From assembly GCA_004284765.1 (NCBI GenBank), contig NQJD01000041.1:1-21483 (forward strand): a DNA stretch of 21,483 nt. The letters are read 5' to 3'. Under the pieces are notes generated by a model. The model was given only the letters and a program-made list of their open reading frames with translations, was not told the origin of the DNA and did not search any database. Position numbers and translations under genes: made by a program. Below, piece by piece: positions 1-16,573 of this stretch. Each line of letters begins with the position of its first letter. The first letter of the stretch is position 1. The stretch comes from Candidatus Electronema aureum (lineage in GTDB: Bacteria > Desulfobacterota > Desulfobulbia > Desulfobulbales > Desulfobulbaceae).

Positions 1-200
<200 letters not shown>

Positions 201-389
201 CACGGACAACAGTATCTACGATGGTTGCAGCTTACGCAAGAGGTCTCATCAAACGCTCATCCCGGTCTAATAATCTCCTGACAGAGGCCGGGAAAAATGA
301 ACGGGCGGATTCAGCCGCCGCCTTGAACAGAATCCTTTTCTGTGATAGAGTGCTTTCTCCGTTTGCCCATCATCAGACCATCGTGCATA

Positions 390-417
390 GTAGGGGCGGT
401 TCGCGAACCGCCCCTAC
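390..417. repeat. Perfect 28-bp GC-rich palindrome (REP-like hairpin), GTAGGGGCGGTTCGCGAACCGCCCCTAC
   Basis: Read directly: the two 14-nt arms are exact reverse complements with no spacer. It lies in the non-coding gap between the transposase stop and pstB. No T-tract follows, so it is not a canonical intrinsic terminator. Confidence 0.85.
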
Positions 418-508
418 GGTGGGGGCCGTTCAATATCCGGCATTACGCCATCACCGTGCTGCTGCTCAACCTGACGGCGCATTTTATTATTGTGGGAGGA
501 AAAAAGAA

Positions 509-1402
509 ATGACTGCTGCCACGGATGCCGCCGAGCGGCTGCTGCGCCGCGCCGCCGAGGTCGAGGACAGCGAGGATGACGACGACAAGGTGCGGATTGA
601 CGCCTTCCTCCATCATTTCCGGGAGGAAGACAAGGAGGACGAGGCGGCTCCGGCCAAAATCTCCGCCCGCAACCTCAACTTCTATTACGGCAACCAGCAG
701 GCCCTGTTCGAGAACAACTTGGACATTGCCGAGGGCAAGATCACCGCGATCATCGGGCCGTCGGGCTGCGGCAAATCCACGCACATCCGCATCTACAACC
801 GCATCTTCGAGCTGTACGGCAACCAGCGGGCCGAAGGCGAGGTGCTGCTGGACGGCAAGAACCTGCTTGATCCCGGCACCGACCTGATCGAGCTGCGCCG
901 CCGCGTAGGGATGATCTTCCAGAAGCCGACCCCGTTCCCCCTCAGCGTCTTTGAGAACGTCGCCTATGGCCTGCGCCTCCATTTCAAAATGCCCAAGAGC
1001 GAGCTGAATGGCCGGGTGGAATCCGCCCTGAAAAAGGCCGCGCTCTTCGAGGAAGTGAAGGACAAGCTGGACAAGCCGGGTGTCGCCTTGTCCGGCGGCC
1101 AGCAGCAGCGGCTCTGCATTGCCCGCACTATCGCCTTGGAGCCGGAAATCCTGCTCATGGACGAGCCGACTTCCGCTATTGATCCGGTCGCCACCCGCAA
1201 GGTGGAGGAGCTGGCCGAATCGCTCAAGGGCAATTTCACCATCGCTATTGTCACCCACAGTATGCAGCAGGCGGCCCGCATCTCTGATTTCACCGCCTTC
1301 TTCTATAAAGGCCACATCGTCGAATACGGCCTGACCAGAGAGCTGTTCACCAATCCCAAGCAAAAGCAGACGGAAGATTACATCACAGGCCGTTTCGGCT
1401 GA
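509..1402 (+). CDS. pstB: Phosphate ABC transporter ATP-binding protein PstB (297 aa, with an unusual acidic N-terminal extension)
   Basis: Walker [13 protein letters not shown] signature LSGGQQQRL, Walker [14 protein letters not shown] and H-loop VTHSM are all present. PstB-typical blocks are also present: [19 protein letters not shown] and the C-terminal EDYITGRFG. The start is placed at ATG 509, which is preceded by GGGAGGA (494-500). The ORF-track start at 197 is an upstream read-through, not coding. phoU lies downstream. Confidence 0.9.
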
Positions 1403-1414
1403 TGGAGACATGTC

Positions 1415-1852
1415 ATGGCAGAAAGAAAAGCAGTCCTCTTTGTTTGCATTCACAACTCTGCCCGCAGCCAGATGGCCGAAGCCTTTCTCCAGCAGGCAGG
1501 CGGCGGACGCTTCGAGGCGGCCAGCGCAGGCATCGAGGCTGGGCGGCTCAATCCGCTCGCGGTCGAGACCATGCAGGAGATCGGCATTGACATCAGCGGC
1601 AACGCCGTGACCAATGTCTTTGACCTGCTCCGGCAAGGAAAAAAGTTTGACTATGTGATCACGGTCTGCGATGATGCTTCTGGCGAACGCTGCCCGCTGT
1701 TTCCCGGCCAGGCCGAGCGGCTGCACTGGCCCTGCGATGATCCGGCCAAGCTGACCGGCAGTCATGCGGAGCAGCTGGAGCGCATCCGGCAAATCCGGGA
1801 GCAGCTCAGGCAGCGGGTCGCCTGGTTTGTTGAAGAGCGAAGAAAACTATAA
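1415..1852 (+). CDS. arsC: Low-molecular-weight phosphatase family protein, thioredoxin-coupled ArsC-type arsenate reductase-like (145 aa)
   Basis: The N-terminal P-loop VLFVCIHNSARSQMAE (CX5R-S) resembles the Bacillus/Staphylococcus ArsC motif CTGNSCRSQMAEG. The downstream Cys pair VCDDASGERCPLFP and the block HWPCDDPA match the three-cysteine relay of that family. The symbol is tentative, because a protein-tyrosine phosphatase role cannot be excluded. Confidence 0.7.
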   Translation: MAERKAVLFVCIHNSARSQMAEAFLQQAGGGRFEAASAGIEAGRLNPLAVETMQEIGIDISGNAVTNVFDLLRQGKKFDYVITVCDDASGERCPLFPGQAERLHWPCDDPAKLTGSHAEQLERIRQIREQLRQRVAWFVEERRKL

Positions 1853-1885
1853 CATGCCTGCCACGAGCAAGGGAGAGCACACGGC

Positions 1886-2542
1886 ATGATTCTGCATCGG
1901 AAAATTCAGAAGATCAAGAAACGCCTGCTGGCTATCGGCGCGATCGTCGAAGAGCAGGTGGATCTGGCGGTGAAAAGCATCGTCAACCGGGACAGCGAGC
2001 TGGCGCAGAAGGTCATTGACGGCGACGTGGCCATTGACCTGATGGAGGTTGACTTGGAGGAGGAGTGCCTGAAGGTGCTGGCCCTGCATCAGCCCATGGC
2101 CGTTGACCTGCGCATGATCATCGCCGTGCTCAAGATCAACAGCGATCTGGAGCGGATCGGCGACTTGGCCGTGGACGCGACCGAGCGGGCCATCGCCTTG
2201 GTCAATCAGGCACCGATTGATTTCCCGTTCGACTTCACGACCATGTCTCAGGCCGTGCAGAAGATGCTCAAGCAGAGCATCGACGCGCTGATCAATCTCG
2301 ACATGGACTTGGCCATGCAGGTCTGCGCCTCAGACGACGCGGTGGATGCTATGCACGCTGAGGTGTACCGCCGGGTTGAAGAAGCAATTCTCCAGCACCC
2401 TGAAGATATTAAGCAAGAGCTGACCTGCCTAAGCGTGTCCCGTTATTTAGAGCGGATCGCTGATCACACCACCAATATTGCCGAGGATGTTATTTATCTG
2501 ATTCAAGGCAATATTGTCCGGCATCAGGACACGATTTACTGA
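1886..2542 (+). CDS. phoU: Phosphate signalling complex protein PhoU (218 aa)
   Basis: The two PhoU repeats carry the conserved metal-binding helices NSDLERIGDLAVD and SRYLERIADHTTNIAED. The gene lies downstream of pstB. Confidence 0.9.
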   Translation: MILHRKIQKIKKRLLAIGAIVEEQVDLAVKSIVNRDSELAQKVIDGDVAIDLMEVDLEEECLKVLALHQPMAVDLRMIIAVLKINSDLERIGDLAVDATERAIALVNQAPIDFPFDFTTMSQAVQKMLKQSIDALINLDMDLAMQVCASDDAVDAMHAEVYRRVEEAILQHPEDIKQELTCLSVSRYLERIADHTTNIAEDVIYLIQGNIVRHQDTIY

Positions 2543-7906: not shown

Positions 7907-10627
7907 TCACCTACCCAGTAAAAGAGCGCTTCGGTCCGATATAGTCATTGGAATGATTAGCCTCACCACTATCTCCATTGCTTCTTCCTTGCTGCTGACC
8001 TCGCCGTTAAGCTGGGCCTCCAGCACCTGATTGAGCAAGGTGCGGAAGCGCGGGCCAGGCTGCAAGCCCAGTTCAAGCAAATCCTGTCCGCTGATTAACG
8101 GTCTGACATCGCGCAGATTGGTCACATAGTGAGAAACCGCCTGCTGGATGTATTTTTTCCGCGCAATCACCATGAGATAAAGCAAGCCTTCATTATCTAT
8201 ATCACGCAGCAGCCAGTAGATTTCGCTCGCCTTGAGCAAGGGGCGGCGCAGCATCTCAGCAGCAATGTGCTCGGCCTTGCTTTTCCGTTCTATAAGATGC
8301 TTGCGGTGCTTGGGTGGCACCTCAAAACGGTCGCAGAAGTGGCGCAGTTCTACGTCTCGTGAGCGACTGAACAAGGCTAAGAGGCGCACGCTCCAGAAAT
8401 CGCAATGCTTGTTGGTTTCAGGTAGATAGAGAAACCTGAACCATGAGATGGCCTTCTCCGCTTGGGTCATCATATAGGAAAAGCGGCGGTCAATCTTTAG
8501 GTTTGGGCGCAGATCAGGCCAGAGAAGCGGAAAGAGACCAAAGCCCTCCAAGCGTCGCAATGCAATGAGCGGATTGTCTTCCGAGAGAATACGACGCAGC
8601 TCATTAAAGAAACGAAGACCAGTGAACTGTTCACGCATGTGCATCTGCACTGCGTTGCGAATTAGCTTCTCCGAATGCTTGGTGATACGGAAGTCTAAGC
8701 GTTGCTCAAAGCGTATAGCGCGAAATATACGAGTAGGGTCTTCAACAAAGCTGAGGTTGTGCAGCACTCTGAGCTGACGTTCTTTCAGATCATTCTGGGA
8801 GCTGAAGTAATCAACTAAGAGACCGAAGCGATCAGGGTTGAGATGCACGGCCATTGCATTCACCGTGAAGTCGCGGCGGAAAAGATCAAGTTTGAGTGAA
8901 CTCTTCTCAACTATCGGCAGGGCAGCAGGTGCAGCGTAGTATTCTAATCGTGCAGTAGCTACATCGATCTTCATGCCGTTGAGTAACGTGACTGTAGCAG
9001 TAGCAAACTTCTCGTGTGTGCGTACAGTTGCTTGCTTTGTAGCAGCAAAGGCTTGCGCAAAGACAATACCATCTCCTTCTACGACGATATCAATATCAAG
9101 ATTGCGGGTTTGCAAGAGCAAGTCGCGGGCAAAACCACCGACCACGTAGGCACGCATCTCAACAGCGTTTGCAATTTCACCAAGCTCGCGCAGCAGGAGG
9201 ATGATTTCTCTGCCTAAGGTATCAACCATCAAGCGAGTGATGTTGCGACTACGTTCTGCTGAAGGATGCTCGTCCTGTCTGAGCAAGCTACGTGACTGAC
9301 GATGAGGATCATGCACCAGCAGATTGAGCAGATCGGTACGCGTAATCACGCCAACAATGCTTGCCTCATCATTCTCTTGACGAACAATAGGAATCAATCG
9401 TTGATGATGTTCAATAATCAGGTCTTGAATATCGGCTTGTGTCGCGTTCTCTGACAAGGTTTCGATTTCTGTACTCATGTAGTCGCCCACTGCTACAGCA
9501 CCGAGCTGATGAGCAATCGCCTTTTCCACGACCCGACGTGAGATTAAGCCAAGTAAACCCTTAGGATACGCCTTGTTTGTGTTATCGCGCACCACAGGAA
9601 GTCCGGTGAGACTATAGCGGGTAAGTAGCTCGCTGGCCTCGTTCATACTGATCTCTGGCGTAGCGGTAATCACTGGTGATGACATGATTTCTTTCGCCAA
9701 AGCCTTAGGACGAATACAGCGATACAACAAGTGCAGCAGCTCTTCTTCTGCCTCAAAGATGGTCTTGTTGGCAATCACAGCAGAGGCAGCCGAGGCATGG
9801 CCACCACCACCAAAGGCACGGGCAATTGTTCCGGCGTTGACTTCAGGAATACGACTACGGCAGATTAAATACAGTCGCTCGCCCATGCAAACCAAGGAAA
9901 AGACCGCATCTAAATTCTCCATGACCATCATTCTCCGCACTAAAGCAGAAAAGTCGTCAGCATAGTCAGGCAACGTTAGCCTGCTGATTGTTACTTGTAT
10001 CGACTGAATGGTATAGACGGCTGAATGCTTGAGCAGCTGGCTGAGAAGTGAAACCTGTGCGGCAGAAAGATCGTGGCTAACAAAGTGATTCACCACATTG
10101 AGCTTGGCTCCTTGTGCTAACAACCACGCTGCTGCTTGCAGATCAGCGGGCGTAGTGCCCGTGTAGAGAAAGGAGCCGGTATCCTCATGAATACCGATGC
10201 TCATCAGCGTGGCTTCGTCCGCAGTCAGGATGATGTTTTGCTCTTGAAAGATGCTGACAAAGATAGAAGTGGTGGAACCAAGCAGTTCTACATGCTCGAA
10301 GTCGCCGCGTAGATCACCGGGCGCATCGGGGTGGTGGTCGTAGAGGTGAAGCTCTAAGCCGGGGTTGCACAGGCATTCTTGCAGCCGATCAAGGCGGTCA
10401 GGCTGACGGGTGTCCACCACGATCAGGCGACGGACGGAAGTTAGGTCAAGGTTCTTGAGCTTCTTGAAATCGTATAGATTGCGGAGATCAGCAGAAAGGA
10501 ACTCGCCTATCCGCCGCTCGGCAGCACCAGCAAAGACCAGCACCGCGCCGGGATAGAGCTTTCGGGCCGCGATCATTGAGGCAAGGCCGTCAAAGTCGGC
10601 GTTGACGTGGGTGGTGATGATGTCCAT
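7907..10627 (-). CDS. Multidomain DHH/DHHA1 phosphoesterase - CBS pair - poly(A) polymerase/CCA-adding (tRNA nucleotidyltransferase) family protein (906 aa)
   Basis: DHH motifs HVNADFDGLAS, VVDT and LYDHHPD are present. The DHHA1 motif is GGGGHASAASA. The CBS region contains IMSSPVITATP and IPIVRQ....IVGVITRTDLL. The nucleotidyltransferase head is YVVGGFARDLLL...LDIDIVVEG, followed by the RRDFTVNAMA and FVEDPTRIFRAIRF blocks of the PcnB/Cca family. Confidence 0.8.
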   Translation of the reverse strand: MDIITTHVNADFDGLASMIAARKLYPGAVLVFAGAAERRIGEFLSADLRNLYDFKKLKNLDLTSVRRLIVVDTRQPDRLDRLQECLCNPGLELHLYDHHPDAPGDLRGDFEHVELLGSTTSIFVSIFQEQNIILTADEATLMSIGIHEDTGSFLYTGTTPADLQAAAWLLAQGAKLNVVNHFVSHDLSAAQVSLLSQLLKHSAVYTIQSIQVTISRLTLPDYADDFSALVRRMMVMENLDAVFSLVCMGERLYLICRSRIPEVNAGTIARAFGGGGHASAASAVIANKTIFEAEEELLHLLYRCIRPKALAKEIMSSPVITATPEISMNEASELLTRYSLTGLPVVRDNTNKAYPKGLLGLISRRVVEKAIAHQLGAVAVGDYMSTEIETLSENATQADIQDLIIEHHQRLIPIVRQENDEASIVGVITRTDLLNLLVHDPHRQSRSLLRQDEHPSAERSRNITRLMVDTLGREIILLLRELGEIANAVEMRAYVVGGFARDLLLQTRNLDIDIVVEGDGIVFAQAFAATKQATVRTHEKFATATVTLLNGMKIDVATARLEYYAAPAALPIVEKSSLKLDLFRRDFTVNAMAVHLNPDRFGLLVDYFSSQNDLKERQLRVLHNLSFVEDPTRIFRAIRFEQRLDFRITKHSEKLIRNAVQMHMREQFTGLRFFNELRRILSEDNPLIALRRLEGFGLFPLLWPDLRPNLKIDRRFSYMMTQAEKAISWFRFLYLPETNKHCDFWSVRLLALFSRSRDVELRHFCDRFEVPPKHRKHLIERKSKAEHIAAEMLRRPLLKASEIYWLLRDIDNEGLLYLMVIARKKYIQQAVSHYVTNLRDVRPLISGQDLLELGLQPGPRFRTLLNQVLEAQLNGEVSSKEEAMEIVVRLIIPMTISDRSALLLGR

Positions 10628-10724
10628 CTGCCCACTTTACTCGATTTGGCGGGGAGTCGCAGTATTTTGTAACGTTTTCAGACTGAACGTGACTCAGGAA
10701 AGACCACTTGAAAAATCTTCCCTT

Positions 10725-10757
10725 TTCATCGTGCTTTCATCCTCCATCTGGTAATTT
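10725..10757 (+). promoter_or_regulatory. Promoter P-A1: direct repeat TTCATC-N5-TTCATC plus extended -10 (TGG TAATTT)
   Basis: The sequence is TTCATCgtgctTTCATCctccatcTGGTAATTT, with hexamers at 10725-10730 and 10736-10741 and TGG-TAATTT at 10749-10757. The same architecture and spacing recur at 11230 and 11731. It ends 74 nt upstream of the ATG at 10831. Confidence 0.65.
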
Positions 10758-10830
10758 TTAAAAAACAAGGACAGGGCTGCATAGCTTTAGCTCTCAATCA
10801 ACAAACGGTATCACGAAAAGGAAATTCATC

Positions 10831-11145
10831 ATGAACAAACTAACAACAGGATTAATCGCCAGTATTTTGTTTACATTCATGGCGTTTAGCTCGGCAAGTG
10901 CAGGTAGGGATGACAGATATGAGCATCATGAACGTCATGATTACCGTAACGACAGGCATGATAATCCATATTCATCCAGTGTCTATATCCATCGTAATAA
11001 TGGTAGATACAGGGATCGTGACCGGCATGGATATAATCACAATCGGTACAGCCACAACGACAACTACCGTAGGAGCCATGACGGTTACAGGCAACACAAC
11101 AATATTGGCTATGGCCACGATATGCATAAACGATATGAGCATTGA
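10831..11145 (+). CDS. Secreted low-complexity His/Arg/Asp/Tyr/Asn-rich protein, family A (A1, 104 aa)
   Basis: Signal peptide MNKLTTGLIASILFTFMAFSSASA is followed by an 80-aa chain. By hand count it has 13 His, 15 Arg and 11 Tyr, with no Cys and almost no aliphatic residues. The RBS is AAAGGAAA. The signal peptide and the HER(H/Y)(D/E)Y..N....NPY motif are shared with A2. Confidence 0.7.
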   Translation: MNKLTTGLIASILFTFMAFSSASAGRDDRYEHHERHDYRNDRHDNPYSSSVYIHRNNGRYRDRDRHGYNHNRYSHNDNYRRSHDGYRQHNNIGYGHDMHKRYEH

Positions 11146-11229
11146 CGATAGAAATTCTCATTATCATCTGGAGGCATAAAACAGGCATCAGCAAATCAAG
11201 CAAGCCAGTCGTTAAAAAAAACATATTCA

Positions 11230-11262
11230 TTCATCTTCTGTTCATCTTCCTTCTGGTAGATT
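11230..11262 (+). promoter_or_regulatory. Promoter P-B1: direct repeat TTCATC-N5-TTCATC plus extended -10 (TGG TAGATT)
   Basis: The sequence is TTCATCttctgTTCATCttccttcTGGTAGATT, with hexamers at 11230-11235 and 11241-11246 and TGG-TAGATT at 11254-11262. It ends 63 nt upstream of the ATG at 11325. Confidence 0.65.
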
Positions 11263-11324
11263 AAAGACAGAAGGAAAGAGAACAGTAGCACAACTAACAA
11301 ACCACCAAAAAAGGAGACCTCATC

Positions 11325-11672
11325 ATGAAACGCGCATTCTTTCTACTGGCAGCTGCTATCACCTTATCCGCCGGAGCAGCAGAAGCAAGTCGGCATGAAT
11401 ACGGATACGGATACGGATACGGCAGAGGATATGGCTACGAAAGCAGGGCAAAATTTTATGGCACGGTTGATGCCATGCCTCAGACTGGTTTTAACGGTGT
11501 ATGGATGGTGAACGGTCGGCAGGTTATGATTACTCCCAGCACCAGAATTAAAGAAAAGTACGCCAGACTTGCTCTTGGTTCCTATGTTGAAGTGGAAGGA
11601 TATCATTCCAATGGCGGCTTCACGGCGTATGAAGTCGAAGTGAAAGGCGGAAGACAGTACGGCTACCGGTAA
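11325..11672 (+). CDS. Secreted protein, family B (B1, 115 aa): YG-repeat linker plus one ~65-aa DUF5666-like domain
   Basis: Signal peptide MKRAFFLLAAAITLSAGAAEA is followed by the linker SRHEYGYGYGYGRGYGYESRA. The domain is KFYGTVDAMPQTGFNGVWMVNGRQVMITPSTRIKEKYARLALGSYVEVEGYHSNGGFTAYEVEVKG. The RBS is AAGGAG. The DUF5666 assignment rests on pattern recollection, not a search. Confidence 0.75.
   Translation: MKRAFFLLAAAITLSAGAAEASRHEYGYGYGYGRGYGYESRAKFYGTVDAMPQTGFNGVWMVNGRQVMITPSTRIKEKYARLALGSYVEVEGYHSNGGFTAYEVEVKGGRQYGYR
11399..11422 (+). repeat. Perfect hexanucleotide tandem repeat (ATACGG)x4 inside B1, encoding the YGYGYGYG tract
   Basis: Read directly: four exact in-frame tandem copies at 11399-11422. 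Confidence 0.9.
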
Positions 11673-11686
11673 GCCGTCTCTACGAA

Positions 11687-11716
11687 CAGGAGGGATTGGG
11701 AAAAAAATCTCTCCTG
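11687..11716 (+). terminator. Hairpin after B1 (weak terminator candidate)
   Basis: CAGGAGGGA (11687-11695) pairs with TCTCTCCTG (11708-11716) with one G-U pair and a 12-nt loop. A-rich sequence follows rather than a U-tract. Confidence 0.3.
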
Positions 11717-11730
11717 AAAAATAAGGTAGT

Positions 11731-11763
11731 TTCATCTTCTGTTCATCTTGCATTTGGTAAATT
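11731..11763 (+). promoter_or_regulatory. Promoter P-A2: direct repeat TTCATC-N5-TTCATC plus extended -10 (TGG TAAATT)
   Basis: The sequence is TTCATCttctgTTCATCttgcattTGGTAAATT, with hexamers at 11731-11736 and 11742-11747 and TGG-TAAATT at 11755-11763. It ends 54 nt upstream of the ATG at 11817. Confidence 0.65.
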
Positions 11764-11816
11764 AGATAATAAGCAAGGAACAGCAGCTTTCATCCAAAGA
11801 CAAAAGGACTCTTATC

Positions 11817-12158
11817 ATGAAGAAGATTGGATTAGGACTCATTGGCAGTGCTTTGTTTGCATTCATGGCAGTTAGCTCGGCACAGGCAAGTAAGCATGAG
11901 GGGTACGAAGATCACGAGCGGTATGAATACGGCAACCGTTATTACAACCCCTACGGATATACCAATTATGATTACAACAATCAGTACCGTAATCATGAGC
12001 AGTATGAGCATAGCAACAATAGGTATAATACCTACAATCCTTACAACGGCACGTATGGTTCTGTCTATAACAATGGCTATACGTACAACAACGCCTCCAA
12101 TGCTTATGGTTACAACAATAACTACAGGCATCATGAGCGGTATGAATACCACCACTAA
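11817..12158 (+). CDS. Secreted low-complexity Tyr/Asn/His-rich protein, family A (A2, 113 aa)
   Basis: Signal peptide MKKIGLGLIGSALFAFMAVSSAQA is homologous to that of A1. By hand count the 89-aa mature chain has 23 Tyr and 19 Asn. It is bracketed by His/Glu motifs, HEGYEDHERYEY at the start and YRHHERYEYHH at the end. The RBS is AAAGGA. Confidence 0.7.
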   Translation: MKKIGLGLIGSALFAFMAVSSAQASKHEGYEDHERYEYGNRYYNPYGYTNYDYNNQYRNHEQYEHSNNRYNTYNPYNGTYGSVYNNGYTYNNASNAYGYNNNYRHHERYEYHH

Positions 12159-12189
12159 TATCGCCATCTGAGTAGGCACAGAAATATCG

Positions 12190-12226
12190 TCACGGCTCTG
12201 AAGATGGCCACTCTTCTGAGCCGTGA
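12190..12226 (+). terminator. Long hairpin after A2 (probable transcript end or stabiliser)
   Basis: TCACGGCTCTGAAGA (12190-12204) pairs with TCTTCTGAGCCGTGA (12212-12226). This is a 15-bp stem with one central T-T mismatch and a 7-nt loop. No U-tract follows. Confidence 0.45.
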
Positions 12227-12351
12227 TACAAGAACAGCTTCGTGACGGGTATTTCCTGTATATAGAAAAGATGCAATTTATCATTTTCTACATCATGCTT
12301 TTCAAACATCCGCATGATGTGCAGCGTACATCATAAAAAGGGGAAAAAACT

Positions 12352-12666
12352 ATGAAACGTGCATTATTTCTACTGGCCGCAGTCTTGGCATTGTCAACTG
12401 GGCCAGCACAGGCAGATGACGATGATGACAGAGAACACCATACCAGCAGTGCTAAATTTTATGGCACAGTCGAAGCATTGCCTCCGTCAGTCAGGAATGG
12501 TATTTGGTGGGTAAATGGTAGGGAAGTGATAGTGAGTCCCAGAACGAAGATAAAAGAAAAGCGCGGCAGCATTGCTGTCGGAGCTTATGTTAAAGTGGAA
12601 GGCTATCTCTCCGGCATTGGATTAGCAGCTGATGAAATTGAAATCAAGGGCAGTAGAAGACACTAA
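12352..12666 (+). CDS. Secreted protein, family B (B2, 104 aa): poly-Asp/His linker plus one DUF5666-like domain
   Basis: Signal peptide MKRALFLLAAVLALSTGPAQA is followed by the linker DDDDDREHHTSSA. The domain is KFYGTVEALPPSVRNGIWWVNGREVIVSPRTKIKEKRGSIAVGAYVKVEGYLSGIGLAADEIEIKG. The RBS is AGGGGA. Confidence 0.75.
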   Translation: MKRALFLLAAVLALSTGPAQADDDDDREHHTSSAKFYGTVEALPPSVRNGIWWVNGREVIVSPRTKIKEKRGSIAVGAYVKVEGYLSGIGLAADEIEIKGSRRH

Positions 12667-12775
12667 ATCCTGATTGAAAAAATTCAGCAGATCAACTAAA
12701 TTTACATTTTGCTTCTTGATTAAGAAACAAGGTGGGCAGCACAACAACCCGATTGTCCAAAAGGAGGACATCATC

Positions 12776-13378
12776 ATGAAAAAGGCATTTCTTTCGTTGG
12801 CAGCAATTTTGGCATGTGTATCAATAACGACAGCAGCTCAAGCCAGTCGGGATGAATATTATGAGCGTGGTGAATACGGCGAGCGTTATGAAGGACGCGG
12901 CTACGATGACGGTGGCAGACGCTATGAAGAAAGCAAATTTTACGGCACAGTAGAAGCAATACCACAAGGCGGTCGGGATGGCATTTGGCGAATCAGCGGC
13001 CGCGATGTTGTGGTCAATCCGAATACGTTTATTAAAGAAGAATACGGCAGAATGGGAATCGGCGCACAAGTTGAAGTAAAAGGTGGCGGTGCTCCTTTCA
13101 TGGCGTATGAAATCGAAGTCAAGAGCGGCAGCAGAGCAATGGGCAACGCTCCTGTGATGAATGGTGGAATAAAGTTTTATGGTCCCATTGAGGCTATGCC
13201 CCAAGGTGGTTTTCTCGGCACTTGGCGGGTTGGTGGTCGGGACGTCCTTGTCACCCAGAACACCTTTATCAAACAAGAATACGGCAGAGTTGCCCCTGGT
13301 GTGCAAGTGGAGGTGAAAGGTAGCGGTACTCCTTTTGTTGCCTATGAAATTGAAGTCAAAGGTGGTACCATGCGCTGA
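12776..13378 (+). CDS. Secreted protein, family B (B3, 200 aa): Glu/Tyr/Arg/Gly linker plus two tandem DUF5666-like domains
   Basis: The start ATG at 12776 follows the RBS AAGGAGG (12761-12767). Signal peptide MKKAFLSLAAILACVSITTAAQA is followed by the linker SRDEYYERGEYGERYEGRGYDDGGRRYEES. Domain a runs KFYGTVEAIPQGG...AYEIEVKS and domain b runs KFYGPIEAMPQGG...AYEIEVKG. Confidence 0.75.
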   Translation: MKKAFLSLAAILACVSITTAAQASRDEYYERGEYGERYEGRGYDDGGRRYEESKFYGTVEAIPQGGRDGIWRISGRDVVVNPNTFIKEEYGRMGIGAQVEVKGGGAPFMAYEIEVKSGSRAMGNAPVMNGGIKFYGPIEAMPQGGFLGTWRVGGRDVLVTQNTFIKQEYGRVAPGVQVEVKGSGTPFVAYEIEVKGGTMR

Positions 13379-13391
13379 TTTTTTCAGTGAG

Positions 13392-13420
13392 CCTACAAGA
13401 GTAATTTTTACTCTTGTAGG
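13392..13420 (+). terminator. Perfect 13-bp hairpin after B3
   Basis: CCTACAAGAGTAA (13392-13404) pairs with TTACTCTTGTAGG (13408-13420) around a 3-nt loop. It is preceded by TTTTTT and not followed by a U-tract. Confidence 0.4.
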
Positions 13421-13457
13421 CAGAACTTCAATGATCACGAGCAAGGAAAAAGGTATC

Positions 13458-13811
13458 ATGAGGAATAGATTATTTTTGTTTGCCGCAGTTTTTGTTGTTT
13501 TTACAGGGGCAGCTCAGGCCGAAGAAAGCGGTCAAAAAAATCAGCTCAAGCAGCATCATTACCAGCCAGGTCAAGGATACGAGCAGGAACCTGAATATAA
13601 ATTTTCTGGTCGAATCACAAAAATTCCTGAAAATTCCTTGTCAGGTATCTGGGTTATTAATAATGATCGCCAAATTGTTGTTTCACCAACCACGAACATC
13701 AAGCAGGAGAATGGTAAGGCGATTGTCGGTGCCTCTGTTGCAGTGAAAGGTGTGCTGCAAGGAAGCAACTTCATGGCCACTGAAATTGAGGTTACGACTG
13801 ACATCCCTTGA
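13458..13811 (+). CDS. Secreted protein, family B (B4, 117 aa): divergent DUF5666-like domain
   Basis: Signal peptide MRNRLFLFAAVFVVFTGAAQA is followed by the linker EESGQKNQLKQHHYQPGQGYEQEPEY. The domain is KFSGRITKIPENSLSGIWVINNDRQIVVSPTTNIKQENGKAIVGASVAVKGVLQGSNFMATEIEV. Confidence 0.7.
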   Translation: MRNRLFLFAAVFVVFTGAAQAEESGQKNQLKQHHYQPGQGYEQEPEYKFSGRITKIPENSLSGIWVINNDRQIVVSPTTNIKQENGKAIVGASVAVKGVLQGSNFMATEIEVTTDIP

Positions 13812-13865
13812 TCACCGCTTGTTTCTCTCTCAAAAGCACCTTAATTCATTCAATCAGCAAATATT

Positions 13866-14471
13866 ATGATGAATAATCAGCAAGATGAAATTCAAAATGG
13901 CAACGCTCGTCTTGCCAATCCCATCCGCTTTTGGCATATAGCGATAATTGTCCTCGCCTTGGCCGCTTTGTTGACCGGCGATTTGGCAGATGACTACAAG
14001 AAGGTTGAACATGTCGGTTTCCTTTTGCACAGCAACATCGGCGTGGCCGTATTCCTCACCCTCTGCTTCTATGTTGCCTACGGACTTTTCGGCCCACAGG
14101 AATTCCGTCTCTCGCGCTGGTTCCCTTTCACCAAAGAACGGCTGCGGCAAACTGGCAAGGATTTGGTCATGCTCACTAAATTCAAGCTGCCAGAACACAA
14201 GCGGCGGCAGGGATTAGCTGGATTGGTGCAATTTTTCGGCATCTTAGTCTTTTCTTGGCTTGCGACCACCGGCACCTTGATGTATTTTCTCATAGAGCCG
14301 GGGAGCAAGGCGCAGGGTTTCGTCCGCGCGGTCAAAGAGGCCCATGAAGTTGGCACTGCGCTGATTCCAGTTTATCTGGCTTTGCATATCGGAGCGGTGC
14401 TTGCACATTCGCTGACTGGACAGCACGTTTGGAAGGAAATCTTTTTCTTCAAAAATAGCACGATTGAATAA
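13866..14471 (+). CDS. Membrane b-type cytochrome, cytochrome b561 / Ni-Fe hydrogenase cytochrome-b-like family (201 aa, about 4 TM)
   Basis: There are four hydrophobic helices with His at helix ends in the family-typical layout: RFWHIAIIVLALAALLTGD, GFLLHSNIGVAVF, and KEAHEVGTALIPVYLALHIGAVLAH. The length is about 200 aa. The assignment rests on pattern recollection. Confidence 0.6.
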   Translation: MMNNQQDEIQNGNARLANPIRFWHIAIIVLALAALLTGDLADDYKKVEHVGFLLHSNIGVAVFLTLCFYVAYGLFGPQEFRLSRWFPFTKERLRQTGKDLVMLTKFKLPEHKRRQGLAGLVQFFGILVFSWLATTGTLMYFLIEPGSKAQGFVRAVKEAHEVGTALIPVYLALHIGAVLAHSLTGQHVWKEIFFFKNSTIE

Positions 14472-14486
14472 GTAGCAAGGGAAGCA

Positions 14487-15161
14487 ATGAAAATTCTGGT
14501 GGTGGAAGACGACAAGCGGTTAGCTGCCTTAGTGAAACGAGGGCTGGAGGAACATGCCTTTGTCGTTGATCTGTGCTATGACGGCGAAGAAGGGCTGTAT
14601 CAGGCCGAAACTTCTCCTTATGACGCGATTGTACTGGATGTGATGATGCCTAAGATGGACGGCTTCACTGTACTACGCAAGCTGCGCGAGCAGGGCAGAG
14701 AAGTACCGGTGATTATGCTCACTGCCAGAGGCGAGGTGGAAAATCGGGTCAAAGGGCTGAACACCGGCGCGGATGATTATTTAGCCAAACCCTTTGACTT
14801 TGCTGAACTGATTGCCCGACTGACCGCAGTGATTCGGCGGAACAAGGGACAAGCTGCCTCGCAGCTGTGTATTGCTGACCTCCACATTGATCTGAACGCT
14901 AAAACCATCGGCAGAGCGGGTATCGATATCCCGCTTTCCGCCAAAGAATACGCCATCCTTGAATATCTCGCCCTGAACAGAAATCGGGTAATTAGCCGCA
15001 CTGAGCTGTCTGAGCATGTTTATGACATGAATTTCGATCTCGACAGCAATATCATTGATGTTTATATCAACCGCTTGCGCAGAAAAATCGATAAAGATCG
15101 TGATCAGCCGCTGATTCAGACCAGAAGAGGCGAAGGCTATATCATTCGTGATGAGGCATAA
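14487..15161 (+). CDS. OmpR/PhoB-family response regulator, CusR/CopR-like subfamily (224 aa)
   Basis: The receiver domain shows MKILVVEDD, phospho-acceptor AIVLDVMMP, MLTAR and AKPF. The winged-helix C-terminus VYDMNFDLDSNIIDVYINRLRRKID...IQTRRGEGY closely resembles the CusR block WDMNFDSDTN.IDV...RLR.KID. Confidence 0.85.
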   Translation: MKILVVEDDKRLAALVKRGLEEHAFVVDLCYDGEEGLYQAETSPYDAIVLDVMMPKMDGFTVLRKLREQGREVPVIMLTARGEVENRVKGLNTGADDYLAKPFDFAELIARLTAVIRRNKGQAASQLCIADLHIDLNAKTIGRAGIDIPLSAKEYAILEYLALNRNRVISRTELSEHVYDMNFDLDSNIIDVYINRLRRKIDKDRDQPLIQTRRGEGYIIRDEA

Positions 15162-15163
15162 TC

Positions 15164-16573
15164 TTGGTACGTTCGATCAAAGGCAGGCTGCTCCTCTGGA
15201 TTTTCATCTCCATGACTGCTTTATTTGCCGCGTTAGGTTACGCGTTGCATTTTAAGCTCCATTACGTGGTGGAAGATTCAGTAGATAAGATGCTTCATGC
15301 CAGCTTGCAGTTTGTGAAAGGTTTAGTCCATAGTCATGATGGAAAAAATATCGAATGCGAATCGAATGAATTTATGCAAGGTGACTACATCACCCCTGAT
15401 TCAGGCCATTATTACCAAGTCTTCCTTAATGGAGAACTACTCGCAGCAGCAGATTCTCTGTTTGATAAAAATTTTAATCTCACTCCCGGCAAAGCAGAAT
15501 CGTACAATGCCAAAGCTCAGGAGTGGCTGTATCATTCAATAGGTCCTAACGACGAACCACTGCGGGTTATTCAGCATGATTTTGTCTATATGGATACGCC
15601 AGTGCGTGTAATTGTTGCCGAAAATATCAGCGAAAGCCTGCTTCTTATCCATCAGCTTATCAATTACTTCTTGCTTATTGTGCCGGTGATGATTGTTTTG
15701 ATCGGCATGATCAGCTTGGTCATTGCTGAGGTTTCACTGCGGCCTGTGCAGCATTTTTCCGCTGCCTTAGAGAAGATCAGCCACAAAAATTTAGAAGAGC
15801 GGATTCCAGTAAATAAACAAGCACGAGAGCTGCGCAGGCTGGCGGAGAAGTTCAATTCATTGCTGGAGCGACTGCACCGCGCTTTCGAGGCAGAAAAAAA
15901 TTTGCTCGGCGATGCTGCCCATGAGTTGAAAACCCCGCTGGCAGTCATCAAAGCGGAATGTGACATCGCCTTGCAGCGAGAACGAACAGCGGAGCAACAC
16001 GCGGCCAGCTTGAAAAACGTGCGGGAAGTGACGAATGGAATGCTCGGTCAGATCAACGGACTCCTGACCCTGACTCGGCTTGATTCTGGCTTGCTCGATG
16101 CTTCAGCCTTTGAACCGATTTCACTCACTGATTGCGTGGAGGATGCGGCCTTGTTAGCCAAGTCTTTAGCTACAAAGAAGAACGTTGCTATCAGTTCCTC
16201 ATTGAACGGTGAACTGAGCGTACTGGGTGATCAAGACAGTTTGACTGAAGCGGTGCTGAACTTAGTTGAAAATGCGATAAAATACAATCATCCCGGTGGA
16301 TTTGTTGCCGTGGAGTTAAACCGCCGGGACAACAAAGCGGAAATCAAGGTCAGCGACACCGGCATCGGCATCAGCGAGCAGGATCAAGAGCGCATCTTTG
16401 ACCGTTTCTACCGCTCTGACGCTGCCCGCAGTAGCCAAGACGGCAGCGGTCTTGGTTTAAGCATTGTGCAAGCAATTGTGCAAGCCCATCACGGCGAGAT
16501 TGCTGTTGAAGCGCAAAGCACCGGTGGTAGTCGTTTCACGATCACACTGCCTTTGGTGACAAAGACCGTTTGA
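15164..16573 (+). CDS. Sensor histidine kinase (469 aa): two TM helices flanking a ~130-aa periplasmic domain, then HAMP, HisKA and HATPase_c
   Basis: TM1 is LLLWIFISMTALFAALGYAL and TM2 is YFLLIVPVMIVLIGMISLVIA. The H-box is AAHELKTPLAVI, the N-box is LVENAIKYN, G1 is DTGIGI and G2 is GSGLGLSIV. The TTG start at 15164 lies 2 nt after the response-regulator stop, and its N-terminus SIKGRLLLW is typical of this kinase class. Confidence 0.85.
   Translation: MVRSIKGRLLLWIFISMTALFAALGYALHFKLHYVVEDSVDKMLHASLQFVKGLVHSHDGKNIECESNEFMQGDYITPDSGHYYQVFLNGELLAAADSLFDKNFNLTPGKAESYNAKAQEWLYHSIGPNDEPLRVIQHDFVYMDTPVRVIVAENISESLLLIHQLINYFLLIVPVMIVLIGMISLVIAEVSLRPVQHFSAALEKISHKNLEERIPVNKQARELRRLAEKFNSLLERLHRAFEAEKNLLGDAAHELKTPLAVIKAECDIALQRERTAEQHAASLKNVREVTNGMLGQINGLLTLTRLDSGLLDASAFEPISLTDCVEDAALLAKSLATKKNVAISSSLNGELSVLGDQDSLTEAVLNLVENAIKYNHPGGFVAVELNRRDNKAEIKVSDTGIGISEQDQERIFDRFYRSDAARSSQDGSGLGLSIVQAIVQAHHGEIAVEAQSTGGSRFTITLPLVTKTV

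What the first reader, a model, noticed from the sequence alone, without database searches (positions are those of the whole stretch)
10725..11763. Three near-identical promoters: TTCATC-N5-TTCATC direct repeat, fixed 7-nt spacer, TGG + TAnnTT extended -10; predicted binding sites of the adjacent OmpR-family regulator
The three promoters align as follows. P-A1 is TTCATC gtgct TTCATC ctccatc TGG TAATTT. P-B1 is TTCATC ttctg TTCATC ttccttc TGG TAGATT. P-A2 is TTCATC ttctg TTCATC ttgcatt TGG TAAATT. The hexamers are 11 bp apart centre to centre, which is one helical turn. The promoter-proximal hexamer ends exactly 10 nt before the -10 hexamer in all three, so the repeat occupies the -35 region. 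Hexamer-N5-hexamer direct repeats that replace the -35 are the known site architecture of OmpR/PhoB-family activators such as the PhoB pho box, the PhoP box and the PmrA box. The only such regulator in the window is encoded 3 kb downstream in the same cluster. I found no other tandem TTCATC pair in the window. Upstream of B3 (about 12700-12735) only a decayed remnant remains, TTTACATTTTGCTTCTTGATTAAG. Upstream of B2 the box is absent.
Basis: partly seen in the sequence, partly recalled or inferred. Interest (0 to 1): 0.7.

Follow-up and report, generated by a model that had tools for sequence, protein, structure and literature searches.

The report
Response-regulator boxes at three activator-dependent promoters
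Three promoters in a cable-bacterium gene cluster carry the same direct-repeat box in place of a -35 element, and comparison with other genomes shows it is very probably the binding site of the two-component regulator encoded next door, an ordinary kind of control element with a sequence not previously described.

Summary
TTCATC-N5-TTCATC-N7-TGG-TAnnTT occurs exactly three times in the window (10725, 11230, 11731, + strand). Shuffled sequence gives 0.01. Each copy lies 85-95 nt before a secreted-protein gene (A1, B1, A2).

Comparative genomics strongly supports the interpretation.
- I fetched eight loci by RR orthology alone (67-87% identity, Electronema, Electrothrix, other Desulfobulbaceae). 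They hold 9 exact and 5 one-mismatch boxes, against 0.03 and 0.5 in shuffles. All lie inside the cluster.
- In Electrothrix the box sits directly upstream of the RR gene, which points to autoregulation.
- A pattern scan of 185,579 species genomes returned 119 loci. Twenty-two carry a full-length homologue of this RR within 8 kb, where about one is expected. They come from at least seven lineages, including Desulfobulbus, four candidate-phyla-radiation groups and Betaproteobacteria.
- An alignment of 28 sites shows about 2 bits per hexamer position, with nearly fixed spacing to a conserved TGnTAnnnT.

The architecture matches PhoB-type promoters, where the box replaces the -35. The sequence resembles the known TorR box (CTGTTCATAT) and the C. 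glutamicum CopR site.

Binding, start sites and the inducing signal are untested. I rate it a new member of a known kind, of moderate interest.

The parts
10725..10741 (+). Box P-A1: TTCATC gtgct TTCATC, predicted RR dimer site at about -39 to -23
   Evidence: Exact match. An identical promoter is present in Ca. Electronema nielsenii F5 (L023).
10749..10757 (+). Extended -10 of P-A1: TGG TAATTT
   Evidence: Sequence. TGnTAnnnT is conserved at this offset in the 28-site alignment.
10831..11145 (+). A1: secreted 104-aa protein. The mature part is 85% H/Y/R/N/D/E/G, with 13 His. No Pfam or NCBIfam family.
11230..11246 (+). Box P-B1: TTCATC ttctg TTCATC
11254..11262 (+). Extended -10 of P-B1: TGG TAGATT
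11325..11672 (+). B1: secreted DUF5666 protein with a Tyr/Gly-rich tail and a predicted OB-fold domain
   Evidence: Pfam PF18914, E 9e-11. AlphaFold model with pLDDT about 90 in the domain. OB-fold matches include CusF.
11687..11716 (+). Stable hairpin after B1 without a U-tract; possible terminator or attenuator
   Evidence: -17 kcal/mol, z -3.7.
11731..11747 (+). Box P-A2: TTCATC ttctg TTCATC
11755..11763 (+). Extended -10 of P-A2: TGG TAAATT
11817..12158 (+). A2: secreted 113-aa Tyr/Asn/His-rich protein, paralogue of A1
12189..12226 (+). Long hairpin after A2 without a U-tract
12352..12666 (+). B2: DUF5666 protein with no intact box upstream
12701..12724 (+). Decayed box and -10 upstream of B3
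   Evidence: Aligns with the boxed B3 promoters of L206 and L212, but the hexamers and TGGTA are lost.
12776..13378 (+). B3: protein with two DUF5666 domains
13458..13811 (+). B4: DUF5666 protein
13866..14471 (+). Cytochrome b561 family membrane protein (PF01292)
   Evidence: The same family lies behind the box in Desulfobulbus sp. (L050) and an unclassified MAG (L041).
14487..15161 (+). OmpR/PhoB-family response regulator, the predicted box-binding protein. Recognition helix SNIIDVYINRLRRK.
   Evidence: PF00072 plus PF00486. Best NCBIfam model is TIGR01387, 252 bits against a cutoff of 279. Orthologues at 62-99% identity (listed hits) in Electronema and Electrothrix.
15164..16573 (+). Cognate sensor histidine kinase (2CSK_N-like periplasmic domain, HAMP, HisKA, HATPase_c)

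Best explanation
The three TTCATC-N5-TTCATC repeats are binding sites for a head-to-tail dimer of the phosphorylated OmpR/PhoB-family response regulator encoded at 14487-15161. Each box spans about -39 to -23 of a promoter that has a TGn-extended but otherwise weak -10 and no -35 hexamer. The RR therefore most likely activates transcription as PhoB does at pho promoters, with the promoter-proximal protomer standing in for -35 recognition and contacting RNA polymerase. When the partner kinase (15164-16573) senses its still unknown periplasmic signal, the RR switches on A1, B1 and A2. These genes encode secreted, His/Tyr/Arg/Asn-rich low-complexity proteins and OB-fold DUF5666 proteins.

Shown by computation: the motif, its spacing, its conservation, and its association with RR orthologues and homologues, including sites directly upstream of the RR gene.
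Inferred: physical binding, activation rather than repression, start sites about 7 nt after each TAnnTT, and a metal or envelope-related signal.
For: The motif is real and non-random in the window: 3 exact copies against 0.01 expected.

Unbiased reverse test. Eight loci were fetched only because they encode an RR 67-87% identical to this one. They contain 9 exact and 5 one-mismatch boxes in 164 kb, against 0.03 and 0.5 in shuffles. Thirteen of the 14 are on the RR strand, and all lie in the cluster, upstream of A-type genes, DUF5666 genes or the RR or HK genes themselves. The other two loci carry TTAATC-N5-TTAATC in the same architecture.

Autoregulatory placement. The box lies about 75-95 nt upstream of the RR start codon in Electrothrix YB6 and AW2, and upstream of a small ORF plus RR-HK operon in Rat3.

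Forward test. The pattern TTCATCN5TTCATCN7TGGTA, scanned over 185,579 species genomes, returned 119 loci. Twenty-two contain a full-length RR homologue (41-79% identity) within 8 kb, in stereotyped positions: 66-140 nt upstream of the RR, or directly after the HK. Background density predicts about 1, Poisson P about 3e-22, and P about 7e-4 even at ten times that background.

The 28-site alignment gives about 2 bits at most hexamer positions (1.1-2.0), 0.7-1.4 bits in the spacer, low information in most of the N7, and then a conserved TGgTAnnnT. Spacing is the same in nearly all sites.

Recognition helices of box-linked RRs share SN(I/V)(I/V)DV(Y/H/F). CusR-like DVAVRRLR homologues have no box.

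Published OmpR-family sites share the core. TorR boxes are CTGTTCATAT and CCGTTCATCC (PMC9239176). The C. glutamicum CopR site TGAAGATTTgaTGAAGATTT has the reverse complement AAATCTTCATCAAATCTTCA, which contains TTCATC-N5-TTCA (PMC3140484).

Placement 10 bp upstream of the -10 is the known pho-box arrangement (my own knowledge; the repeat structure of the pho box is quoted in PMC3333781).
Against: No experimental data exist: no binding assay, no mapped start site, no expression data.

An extended -10 promoter can work without a -35, so an RR bound at -39 to -23 could in principle repress.

In the window itself there is no box directly upstream of cytb-RR-HK, so autoregulation is not evident here.

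RR homologues at 34-50% identity taken from metagenomes mostly lack the box. The association therefore holds for a subfamily, not for all relatives.

Confidence: 0.8

Rival explanations
1. The boxes are bound by a different OmpR-family regulator encoded elsewhere in the genome, for example PhoB (a pstB-phoU pair lies at the start of the window) or a paralogue, and not by the adjacent RR.
For: Pho-type promoters have the same architecture. pstB-phoU lies at 197-2542. OmpR-family paralogues can share similar boxes; cross-regulation between HssR and HitR is described in PMC3968170.
Against: The box follows this RR's orthologues and homologues across genomes whose surrounding genes are unrelated, and it sits directly upstream of the RR gene in Electrothrix and in Desulfobulbus L084. 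Known PhoB boxes are CTGTCAT-N4-CTGTCAT in E. coli and (c/t)GTnAC repeats in Desulfovibrio (PMC3333781), not TTCATC.
Confidence: 0.07
2. The RR binds the boxes but acts as a repressor. It occludes an extended -10 promoter that is constitutively active without a -35.
For: TGn-extended -10 promoters do not need a -35 (established knowledge). The box overlaps the region RNA polymerase must occupy.
Against: Spacing between box and -10 is the same in nearly all of 28 sites, and orientation is always co-directional with the gene. That is what a precise activator-polymerase contact requires and more than simple occlusion would need. The -10 hexamers are weak (TAATTT, TAGATT, TAAATT). Boxes upstream of the RR's own operon fit the common positive autoregulation.
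Confidence: 0.08
3. The similarity is only a by-product of recent tandem duplication of gene-plus-promoter cassettes and has no regulatory meaning.
For: A1/A2 and B1-B4 are paralogue families in tandem. The 5' UTR ends are also similar, AAAAGGAG..ATCATG.
Against: Conservation is confined to the hexamers, the spacer and the -10, while the flanks are unalignable. The box precedes non-homologous genes: A-type, DUF5666, RR, HK, PepSY, methyltransferase, cytochrome b561. It is also found in distant lineages.
Confidence: 0.02
4. The repeat is the -35 region of an alternative (ECF-type) sigma-factor promoter.
For: The reverse complement contains TGAAC, which resembles ECF -35 elements (my own knowledge).
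Against: The orientation is wrong for the downstream genes. Two phased copies 11 bp apart are not a sigma-factor feature. The -10 is sigma-70-like with a TG extension. No sigma or anti-sigma gene is in the cluster.
Confidence: 0.02

Closest known systems
PhoB-dependent pho promoters (pho box)
   Same: Two direct repeats with an 11-bp period occupy the -35 position about 10 bp upstream of the -10. There is no -35 hexamer. The activator belongs to the OmpR/PhoB family and is encoded with its kinase.
   Different: The sequence is TTCATC rather than CTGTCAT (PMC3333781). The RR is not PhoB: the NCBIfam PhoB model scores 194 bits against a cutoff of 296. The target genes are unrelated to phosphate.
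TorR tor boxes (E. coli and Salmonella torCAD)
   Same: An OmpR-family RR binds direct repeats with the core GTTCAT. The consensus CTGTTCATAT matches CTGTTCATCT of P-B1 and P-A2 at 9 of 10 positions. Box3 is CCGTTCATCC (PMC9239176).
   Different: TorR uses four decamer boxes spread over the promoter and controls TMAO respiration. No tor genes are present here. TorR is not among the 25 best NCBIfam models shown for this RR.
Corynebacterium glutamicum CopR site
   Same: It is experimentally proven: two 9-bp direct repeats with a 2-bp linker, TGAAGATTTgaTGAAGATTT. The reverse complement reads AAATC TTCATC AAATC TTCA, that is TTCATC-N5-TTCA, nearly the Desulfobulbus version ATTTC TTCATC. CopR is a heavy-metal-type OmpR-family RR, and its site lies in the intergenic region next to its own gene (PMC3140484).
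   Different: It is a single site 59-78 bp upstream of the copR start codon that serves two divergent operons. The targets are a Cu-ATPase and a multicopper oxidase. I did not compare the CopR protein sequence with this RR.
CusR/CopR/SilR/CzcR heavy-metal regulators (TIGR01387/TIGR01386)
   Same: These are the best-scoring curated models for both the RR and the HK. A predicted periplasmic OB-fold protein (compare CusF) and His-rich secreted proteins (compare PcoE/SilE, from my own knowledge) are among the targets.
   Different: Both scores fall below the family cutoffs (252 against 279, 251 against 293). The recognition helix is DVYINRLR, not DVAV(K/R)RLR. CusR-like homologues lack the box. 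No efflux pump, P-type ATPase or multicopper oxidase is in the cluster.
PmrA and BqsR boxes (TTAAK-N6-TTAAK)
   Same: They have the same 11-bp direct-repeat layout. The variant TTAATC-N5-TTAATC in L210, L211 and L033 differs from them by little (the box sequences are from my own knowledge). The Desulfobulbus targets (sulfatase family, PAP2, DedA/VTT) and the PepSY genes in Betaproteobacteria recall those regulons.
   Different: The window's boxes have C, not A, at hexamer position 3. The RR scores far below the PmrA cutoff (185 against 330).
Thermotoga maritima DrrD (PDB 1kgs)
   Same: It is the closest solved structure by a wide margin, E 1e-66 over the full length.
   Different: To my knowledge the DNA site and regulon of DrrD are uncharacterised, so it gives no functional transfer.

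Membership tests
OmpR/PhoB-type activator site replacing the -35 (class II, pho-box-like promoter) | Two direct-repeat half-sites with a 10-11 bp period | tested here: met
   TTCATC-N5-TTCATC, 11-bp period, three times in the window and in 28 aligned sites.
OmpR/PhoB-type activator site replacing the -35 (class II, pho-box-like promoter) | The box abuts or overlaps the -35 position at fixed distance from a recognisable -10, and no -35 consensus is present | tested here: met
   The proximal hexamer ends 10 nt before TAnnnT in all three window promoters and in nearly all of the 28 sites. At most 2 of 6 matches to TTGACA at 16-18 nt spacing. Not called by the sigma-70 scan.
OmpR/PhoB-type activator site replacing the -35 (class II, pho-box-like promoter) | A winged-helix (Trans_reg_C) response regulator is genetically linked to the box across genomes | tested here: met
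OmpR/PhoB-type activator site replacing the -35 (class II, pho-box-like promoter) | Direct, phosphorylation-stimulated binding of the RR to the box | not testable with these tools
   Needs EMSA, footprinting or DAP-seq.
OmpR/PhoB-type activator site replacing the -35 (class II, pho-box-like promoter) | RR-dependent transcription starting about 7 nt after the -10 | not testable with these tools
   Needs 5'-RACE or dRNA-seq, plus reporters or in vitro transcription.
Heavy-metal two-component systems (TIGR01387 RR / TIGR01386 HK) | Score above the curated NCBIfam cutoff | tested here: not met
   RR 252.1 against 279.2. HK 251.2 against 292.55.
Heavy-metal two-component systems (TIGR01387 RR / TIGR01386 HK) | Adjacent metal efflux or detoxification genes (RND pump, P-type ATPase, multicopper oxidase) | tested here: not met
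   None in the window or in the orthologous clusters.
Heavy-metal two-component systems (TIGR01387 RR / TIGR01386 HK) | CusR-type recognition helix (DVAVxRLR) and copper-box site | tested here: not met
   The helix is DVYINRLR. Homologues with DVAVRRLR (L126-L130) have no TTCATC box.
TorR/tor-box system | Decamer CTGTTCATAT repeats | tested here: inconclusive
   9 of 10 identity to CTGTTCATCT in P-B1 and P-A2 (PMC9239176), but only two phased copies and a different context.
TorR/tor-box system | Control of torCAD-type TMAO reductase genes, with a TorS/TorT partner | tested here: not met
   No such genes in the window.
PhoB regulon | Pho box CTGTCAT-N4-CTGTCAT (or GTnAC repeats in Desulfovibrio) and a PhoB equivalog score | tested here: not met
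   Different sequence (PMC3333781). The PhoB model scores 193.6 against 296.2.

The most novel reading that the evidence does not exclude
The TTCATC box marks a previously unrecognised, cross-phylum specificity subfamily of OmpR-type regulators. These are DrrD-like, with recognition helix SN(I/V)(I/V)DV(Y/H/F), and are found from candidate-phyla-radiation bacteria to Desulfobulbaceae and Betaproteobacteria. In cable bacteria this subfamily has been recruited to drive a tandemly amplified set of secreted His/Tyr-rich disordered proteins and OB-fold DUF5666 proteins. Together these would form an inducible periplasmic metal-buffering or redox-protection system, possibly tied to the metal economy of the Ni-containing conductive fibres.
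Probability: 0.12. Interest if true: 0.7.

Novelty: new member of a known kind. Interest (0 to 1): 0.4.

Why it matters
It gives a concrete cis-element, and so a predictable regulon, for an uncharacterised two-component system conserved throughout cable bacteria (Electronema and Electrothrix). These organisms cannot be grown in pure culture, so regulatory knowledge comes almost entirely from sequence. The box, the PWM and the list of boxed genes make the system directly testable by DAP-seq or EMSA with recombinant protein, and by re-analysis of metatranscriptomes. The cross-phylum association of one box with one recognition-helix type is also a small, clean data point for the DNA-recognition code of OmpR-family regulators. 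The mechanism itself, a direct-repeat box replacing the -35, is textbook.

Tried and rejected
1. I first took the Desulfobulbus hits (TTCATCATTTCTTCATC...) for a conserved coding sequence. ORF and tblastn analysis showed they are intergenic and lie next to RR-HK pairs, so I dropped that idea.

2. Literature searches for the exact hexamer with 'response regulator' and 'direct repeat' gave only primer sequences or unrelated motifs: BesR (PMC9426598) and Sulfurospirillum RR2 with CTATW-N17-CTATW (PMC7755780). I found no paper describing a TTCATC-N5-TTCATC box.

3. The D. vulgaris DAP-chip paper (PMC3333781) contains no TTCAT motif.

4. I recall the HssR box as GTTCATATT-N2-GTTCATATT but could not verify it in the held papers. 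I use it only as an unverified recollection.

5. Metagenome relatives of the RR at 34-50% identity (80 loci) were too distant. The box was mostly absent, with only L142, L132 and L125 carrying one-mismatch copies beside the RR.

6. An Rfam scan of 10600-14500 found nothing above chance, so no riboswitch or known leader lies in the 5' UTRs.

7. The intrinsic-terminator scan found none between the genes. Folding did find stable hairpins without U-tracts.

Full report
WHAT IS THERE

The window comes from record OW818638.1 of assembly GCA_942492785.1, a 2.94-Mb chromosome. The tools did not name the organism. The cluster is 95-98% identical at protein level to a contig of Candidatus Electronema nielsenii F5 (L023). 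The accession also sits in the same series as Ca. Electronema halotolerans OW818675.1. It is therefore an Electronema cable bacterium, probably the closed Ca. E. aureum genome of PMC10030654; that last step is inferred.

On the + strand lies a cluster of nine genes:
- A1 (10831-11145)
- B1 (11325-11672)
- A2 (11817-12158)
- B2 (12352-12666)
- B3 (12776-13378)
- B4 (13458-13811)
- a cytochrome b561 family protein (13866-14471)
- an OmpR-family response regulator (14487-15161)
- its histidine kinase (15164-16573)

A1 and A2 are secreted proteins with no family assignment. Their mature parts are 82-85% H/Y/R/N/D/E/G. B1 to B4 are secreted DUF5666 proteins. The domain is confidently modelled as a small OB-fold barrel. 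Its best PDB matches are generic OB folds, with the periplasmic copper chaperone CusF among them, but the match is weak.

THE OBSERVATION

TTCATC-N5-TTCATC occurs exactly at 10725, 11230 and 11731, all on the + strand, and nowhere else in the window. Shuffles give 0.01. Each copy is followed by 7 nt, then TGG, then TAATTT, TAGATT or TAAATT. The box therefore spans about -39 to -23 relative to a start site about 7 nt after the -10. No TTGACA-like hexamer is present, and the sigma-70 consensus scan called none of the three.

That region is homologous to the B3 upstream regions of two related genomes that still have TTCATT-N5-TTCATC-N7-TGGTATTAT. The window has lost both the hexamers and the -10.

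DOES THE BOX BELONG TO THE ADJACENT REGULATOR?

I ran the test in both directions.

Forward test. I scanned one genome for each of 185,579 species for TTCATCN5TTCATCN7TGGTA. About 70 chance hits are expected from pattern complexity (my own estimate). Twenty-two of the loci contain a full-length homologue of the window RR (41-79% identity) within the 8-kb stretch. I estimated the background density of such RR genes from 870 kb of unrelated flanks, and it predicts about one. That gives Poisson P about 3e-22, and about 7e-4 even at ten times the background.

The positions are stereotyped:
- In about ten Desulfobulbus-type genomes the box, with spacer ATTTC, lies 105-140 nt upstream of the RR-HK operon and points away from it. 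It points toward a PEMT/ICMT-type methyltransferase, a sulfatase-family membrane protein, a PAP2 phosphatase or a DedA/VTT protein. In L084 a second copy sits 66 nt upstream of the RR itself, and L050 has the box before a cytochrome b561 gene.
- In four candidate-phyla-radiation genomes it lies immediately after RR-HK, before a secreted 315-333-aa protein.
- In two Betaproteobacteria it precedes a PepSY-RR-HK operon.

Reverse test. I took RR orthologues from a protein search and fetched eight loci purely by RR identity (67-87%), spanning Electronema, Electrothrix and other Desulfobulbaceae. They contain 9 exact and 5 one-mismatch boxes in 164 kb, against 0.03 and 0.5 in shuffles. Thirteen of the 14 are on the RR strand, and all lie within the cluster.
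- In Electronema-type loci the boxes precede A-type and DUF5666 genes.
- In Electrothrix YB6 and AW2 a box lies about 75-95 nt upstream of the RR start codon. In Rat3 it precedes a 53-aa ORF followed by RR-HK. In YB6 another box precedes the HK.
- The two loci without TTCATC boxes carry TTAATC-N5-TTAATC-N7-TGT-TAnnnT upstream of DUF5666-cytb-RR-HK. The same variant precedes the third A-type gene of E. halotolerans.

An alignment of 28 sites shows about 2 bits at most hexamer positions (1.1-2.0) and 0.7-1.4 bits in the spacer (consensus TTCTG). The real repeat unit is therefore about 9-11 bp, roughly GTTCATCTT. Most of the N7 carries little information, and then comes TGgTAnnnT. The spacing between box and -10 is the same in nearly all sites, and orientation always matches the downstream gene.

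Recognition helices of box-linked RRs share SN(I/V)(I/V)DV(Y/H/F). RR homologues with a CusR-type helix (DVAVRRLR, L126-L130) at similar overall identity have no box.

MECHANISM

Four facts point to a PhoB-type, class II-like activation mechanism:
- a phased direct repeat in place of the -35
- nearly invariant spacing to a TG-extended but weak -10
- co-orientation with the downstream gene
- copies upstream of the regulator's own operon

In that mechanism the phosphorylated RR binds head-to-tail and the proximal protomer contacts RNA polymerase; this is established knowledge for PhoB. The strict spacing argues against simple repression by occlusion but does not exclude it.

Stable hairpins without U-tracts follow B1, A2 and B3. 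This suggests that A1(-B1), B1 and A2 are separate short units. B2-B3 and B4-cytb-RR-HK would then be expressed from other promoters. A sigma-70-like TTGAAA-17-TAAATT lies at 12674-12702.

The signal is unknown. Several hints suggest a periplasmic metal or envelope cue, but they are only hints:
- The best curated models for the RR and HK are the heavy-metal subfamily, both below cutoff.
- The targets are His-rich or OB-fold periplasmic proteins.
- The Desulfobulbus targets are envelope-modifying enzymes.
- One orthologous locus lies next to ZnuA, ABC-3 and Zip transporter genes.

COMPARISON WITH WHAT IS KNOWN

I found no paper describing a TTCATC-N5-TTCATC box. Published OmpR-family sites share the core.
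- TorR boxes are CTGTTCATAT, with CCGTTCATCC as box3 (PMC9239176). That is 9 of 10 identical to CTGTTCATCT in P-B1 and P-A2.
- The proven C. glutamicum CopR site TGAAGATTTgaTGAAGATTT (PMC3140484) has the reverse complement AAATCTTCATCAAATCTTCA, which contains TTCATC-N5-TTCA.
- I recall the HssR box as GTTCATATT-N2-GTTCATATT but could not verify it.
- The PhoB box differs: CTGTCAT repeats in E. coli, GTnAC repeats in Desulfovibrio (PMC3333781).

The closest solved structure is T. maritima DrrD, whose regulon is to my knowledge unknown. The system fails the membership tests for CusRS-type, PhoB, PmrA and TorR families. It works like all of them.

VERDICT

It is a new member of a well-known kind of element. 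Its value lies in defining a testable regulon for an uncultured group, and in the unexpectedly broad phylogenetic association between one box and one recognition-helix type. Interest 0.4.

Noticed in passing
L210 8443-8459; L211 8642-8658; L033 612-628: Variant boxes TTAATC-N5-TTAATC (C to A in both hexamers) have the same N7-TGn-TAnnnT architecture. The three RRs of these genomes end the recognition helix with RLRN-K. The six RRs seen only with TTCATC boxes have RLR(R/K)K. This may be co-variation of protein and site, but n = 9 and the genomes are related.
   Followed up: partly
28-site alignment; in the window e.g. 10713-10716, 11218-11221, 11719-11721 and 10758-10772, 11263-11277, 11764-11778: Two further conserved features flank the box. 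An AAA(A) run lies 10-12 nt upstream of the distal hexamer, at a UP-element-like position. A purine-rich gaAgAcAtaaGgAag motif follows directly after the -10, at the start of the transcript. Neither has an explained function.
   Followed up: no
window 11687-11716, 12189-12226, 13391-13421: Stable hairpins without U-tracts follow B1, A2 and B3 (z -3.7, -2.9, -4.7). The terminator scan did not call them. They may be terminators, attenuators or mRNA stabilisers.
   Followed up: partly
L006, L026, L040, L066, L071, L077, L084, L098, L103, L110, L111 (Desulfobulbus-type genomes): The same box with a nearly invariant spacer ATTTC lies between an RR-HK pair (RR 44-50% identical to the window's) and envelope genes: a PEMT/ICMT methyltransferase, a 668-aa sulfatase-family protein, a PAP2 phosphatase, a DedA/VTT protein. 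It also precedes a cytochrome b561 gene elsewhere in the genome (L050). This regulon recalls PmrA-type lipid remodelling.
   Followed up: partly
L031, L038, L044, L091 (Woese-, Levy-, Collier- and Roizmanbacteria): In candidate-phyla-radiation genomes the box TTCATCTTCGCTTCATC-N7-TGGTA lies directly after an RR-HK pair and before a conserved 315-333-aa secreted protein with no Pfam family.
   Followed up: no
L075 3712-3740 (Ca. Electronema sp. JC, second contig): A perfect box plus TGGTA lies outside the main cluster with no obvious gene behind it. Only a 30-aa ORF and a 51-aa membrane-like ORF follow. It could drive a small protein or an sRNA.
   Followed up: no
L033 454-602: In E. halotolerans a perfect box drives only a truncated A-type ORF (MKKLIAGLIGGV, then a stop). 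This is a pseudogenised copy within the tandem array.
   Followed up: no
window 15164-16573 (HK residues about 60-75); L033 4107-5516: The periplasmic segment IECESNEFMQGDY is identical in the window and in E. halotolerans. It contains an ExxE motif of the kind used for iron sensing in PmrB and BqsS (my own knowledge). Only two sequences were compared.
   Followed up: no
window 12270-12300: Upstream of B2, MAFFT aligned TTTATC..TACATC with the boxes.
   Followed up: no
window 197-2542 and 443-1792 (-): pstB (ABC_tran) and phoU lie at the left end of the window. The 449-aa ORF on the opposite strand has no family match and is probably spurious.
   Followed up: no
L205 1609-5386; L212 3167-7038: In two Electronema-type loci the A/B cluster lies directly downstream of a Fer4_11-NrfD-multihaem cytochrome c gene set. 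In the window it lies next to the DHH-CBS-PolyA_pol (CCA-type) gene. The cluster's left neighbour is therefore not conserved.
   Followed up: no
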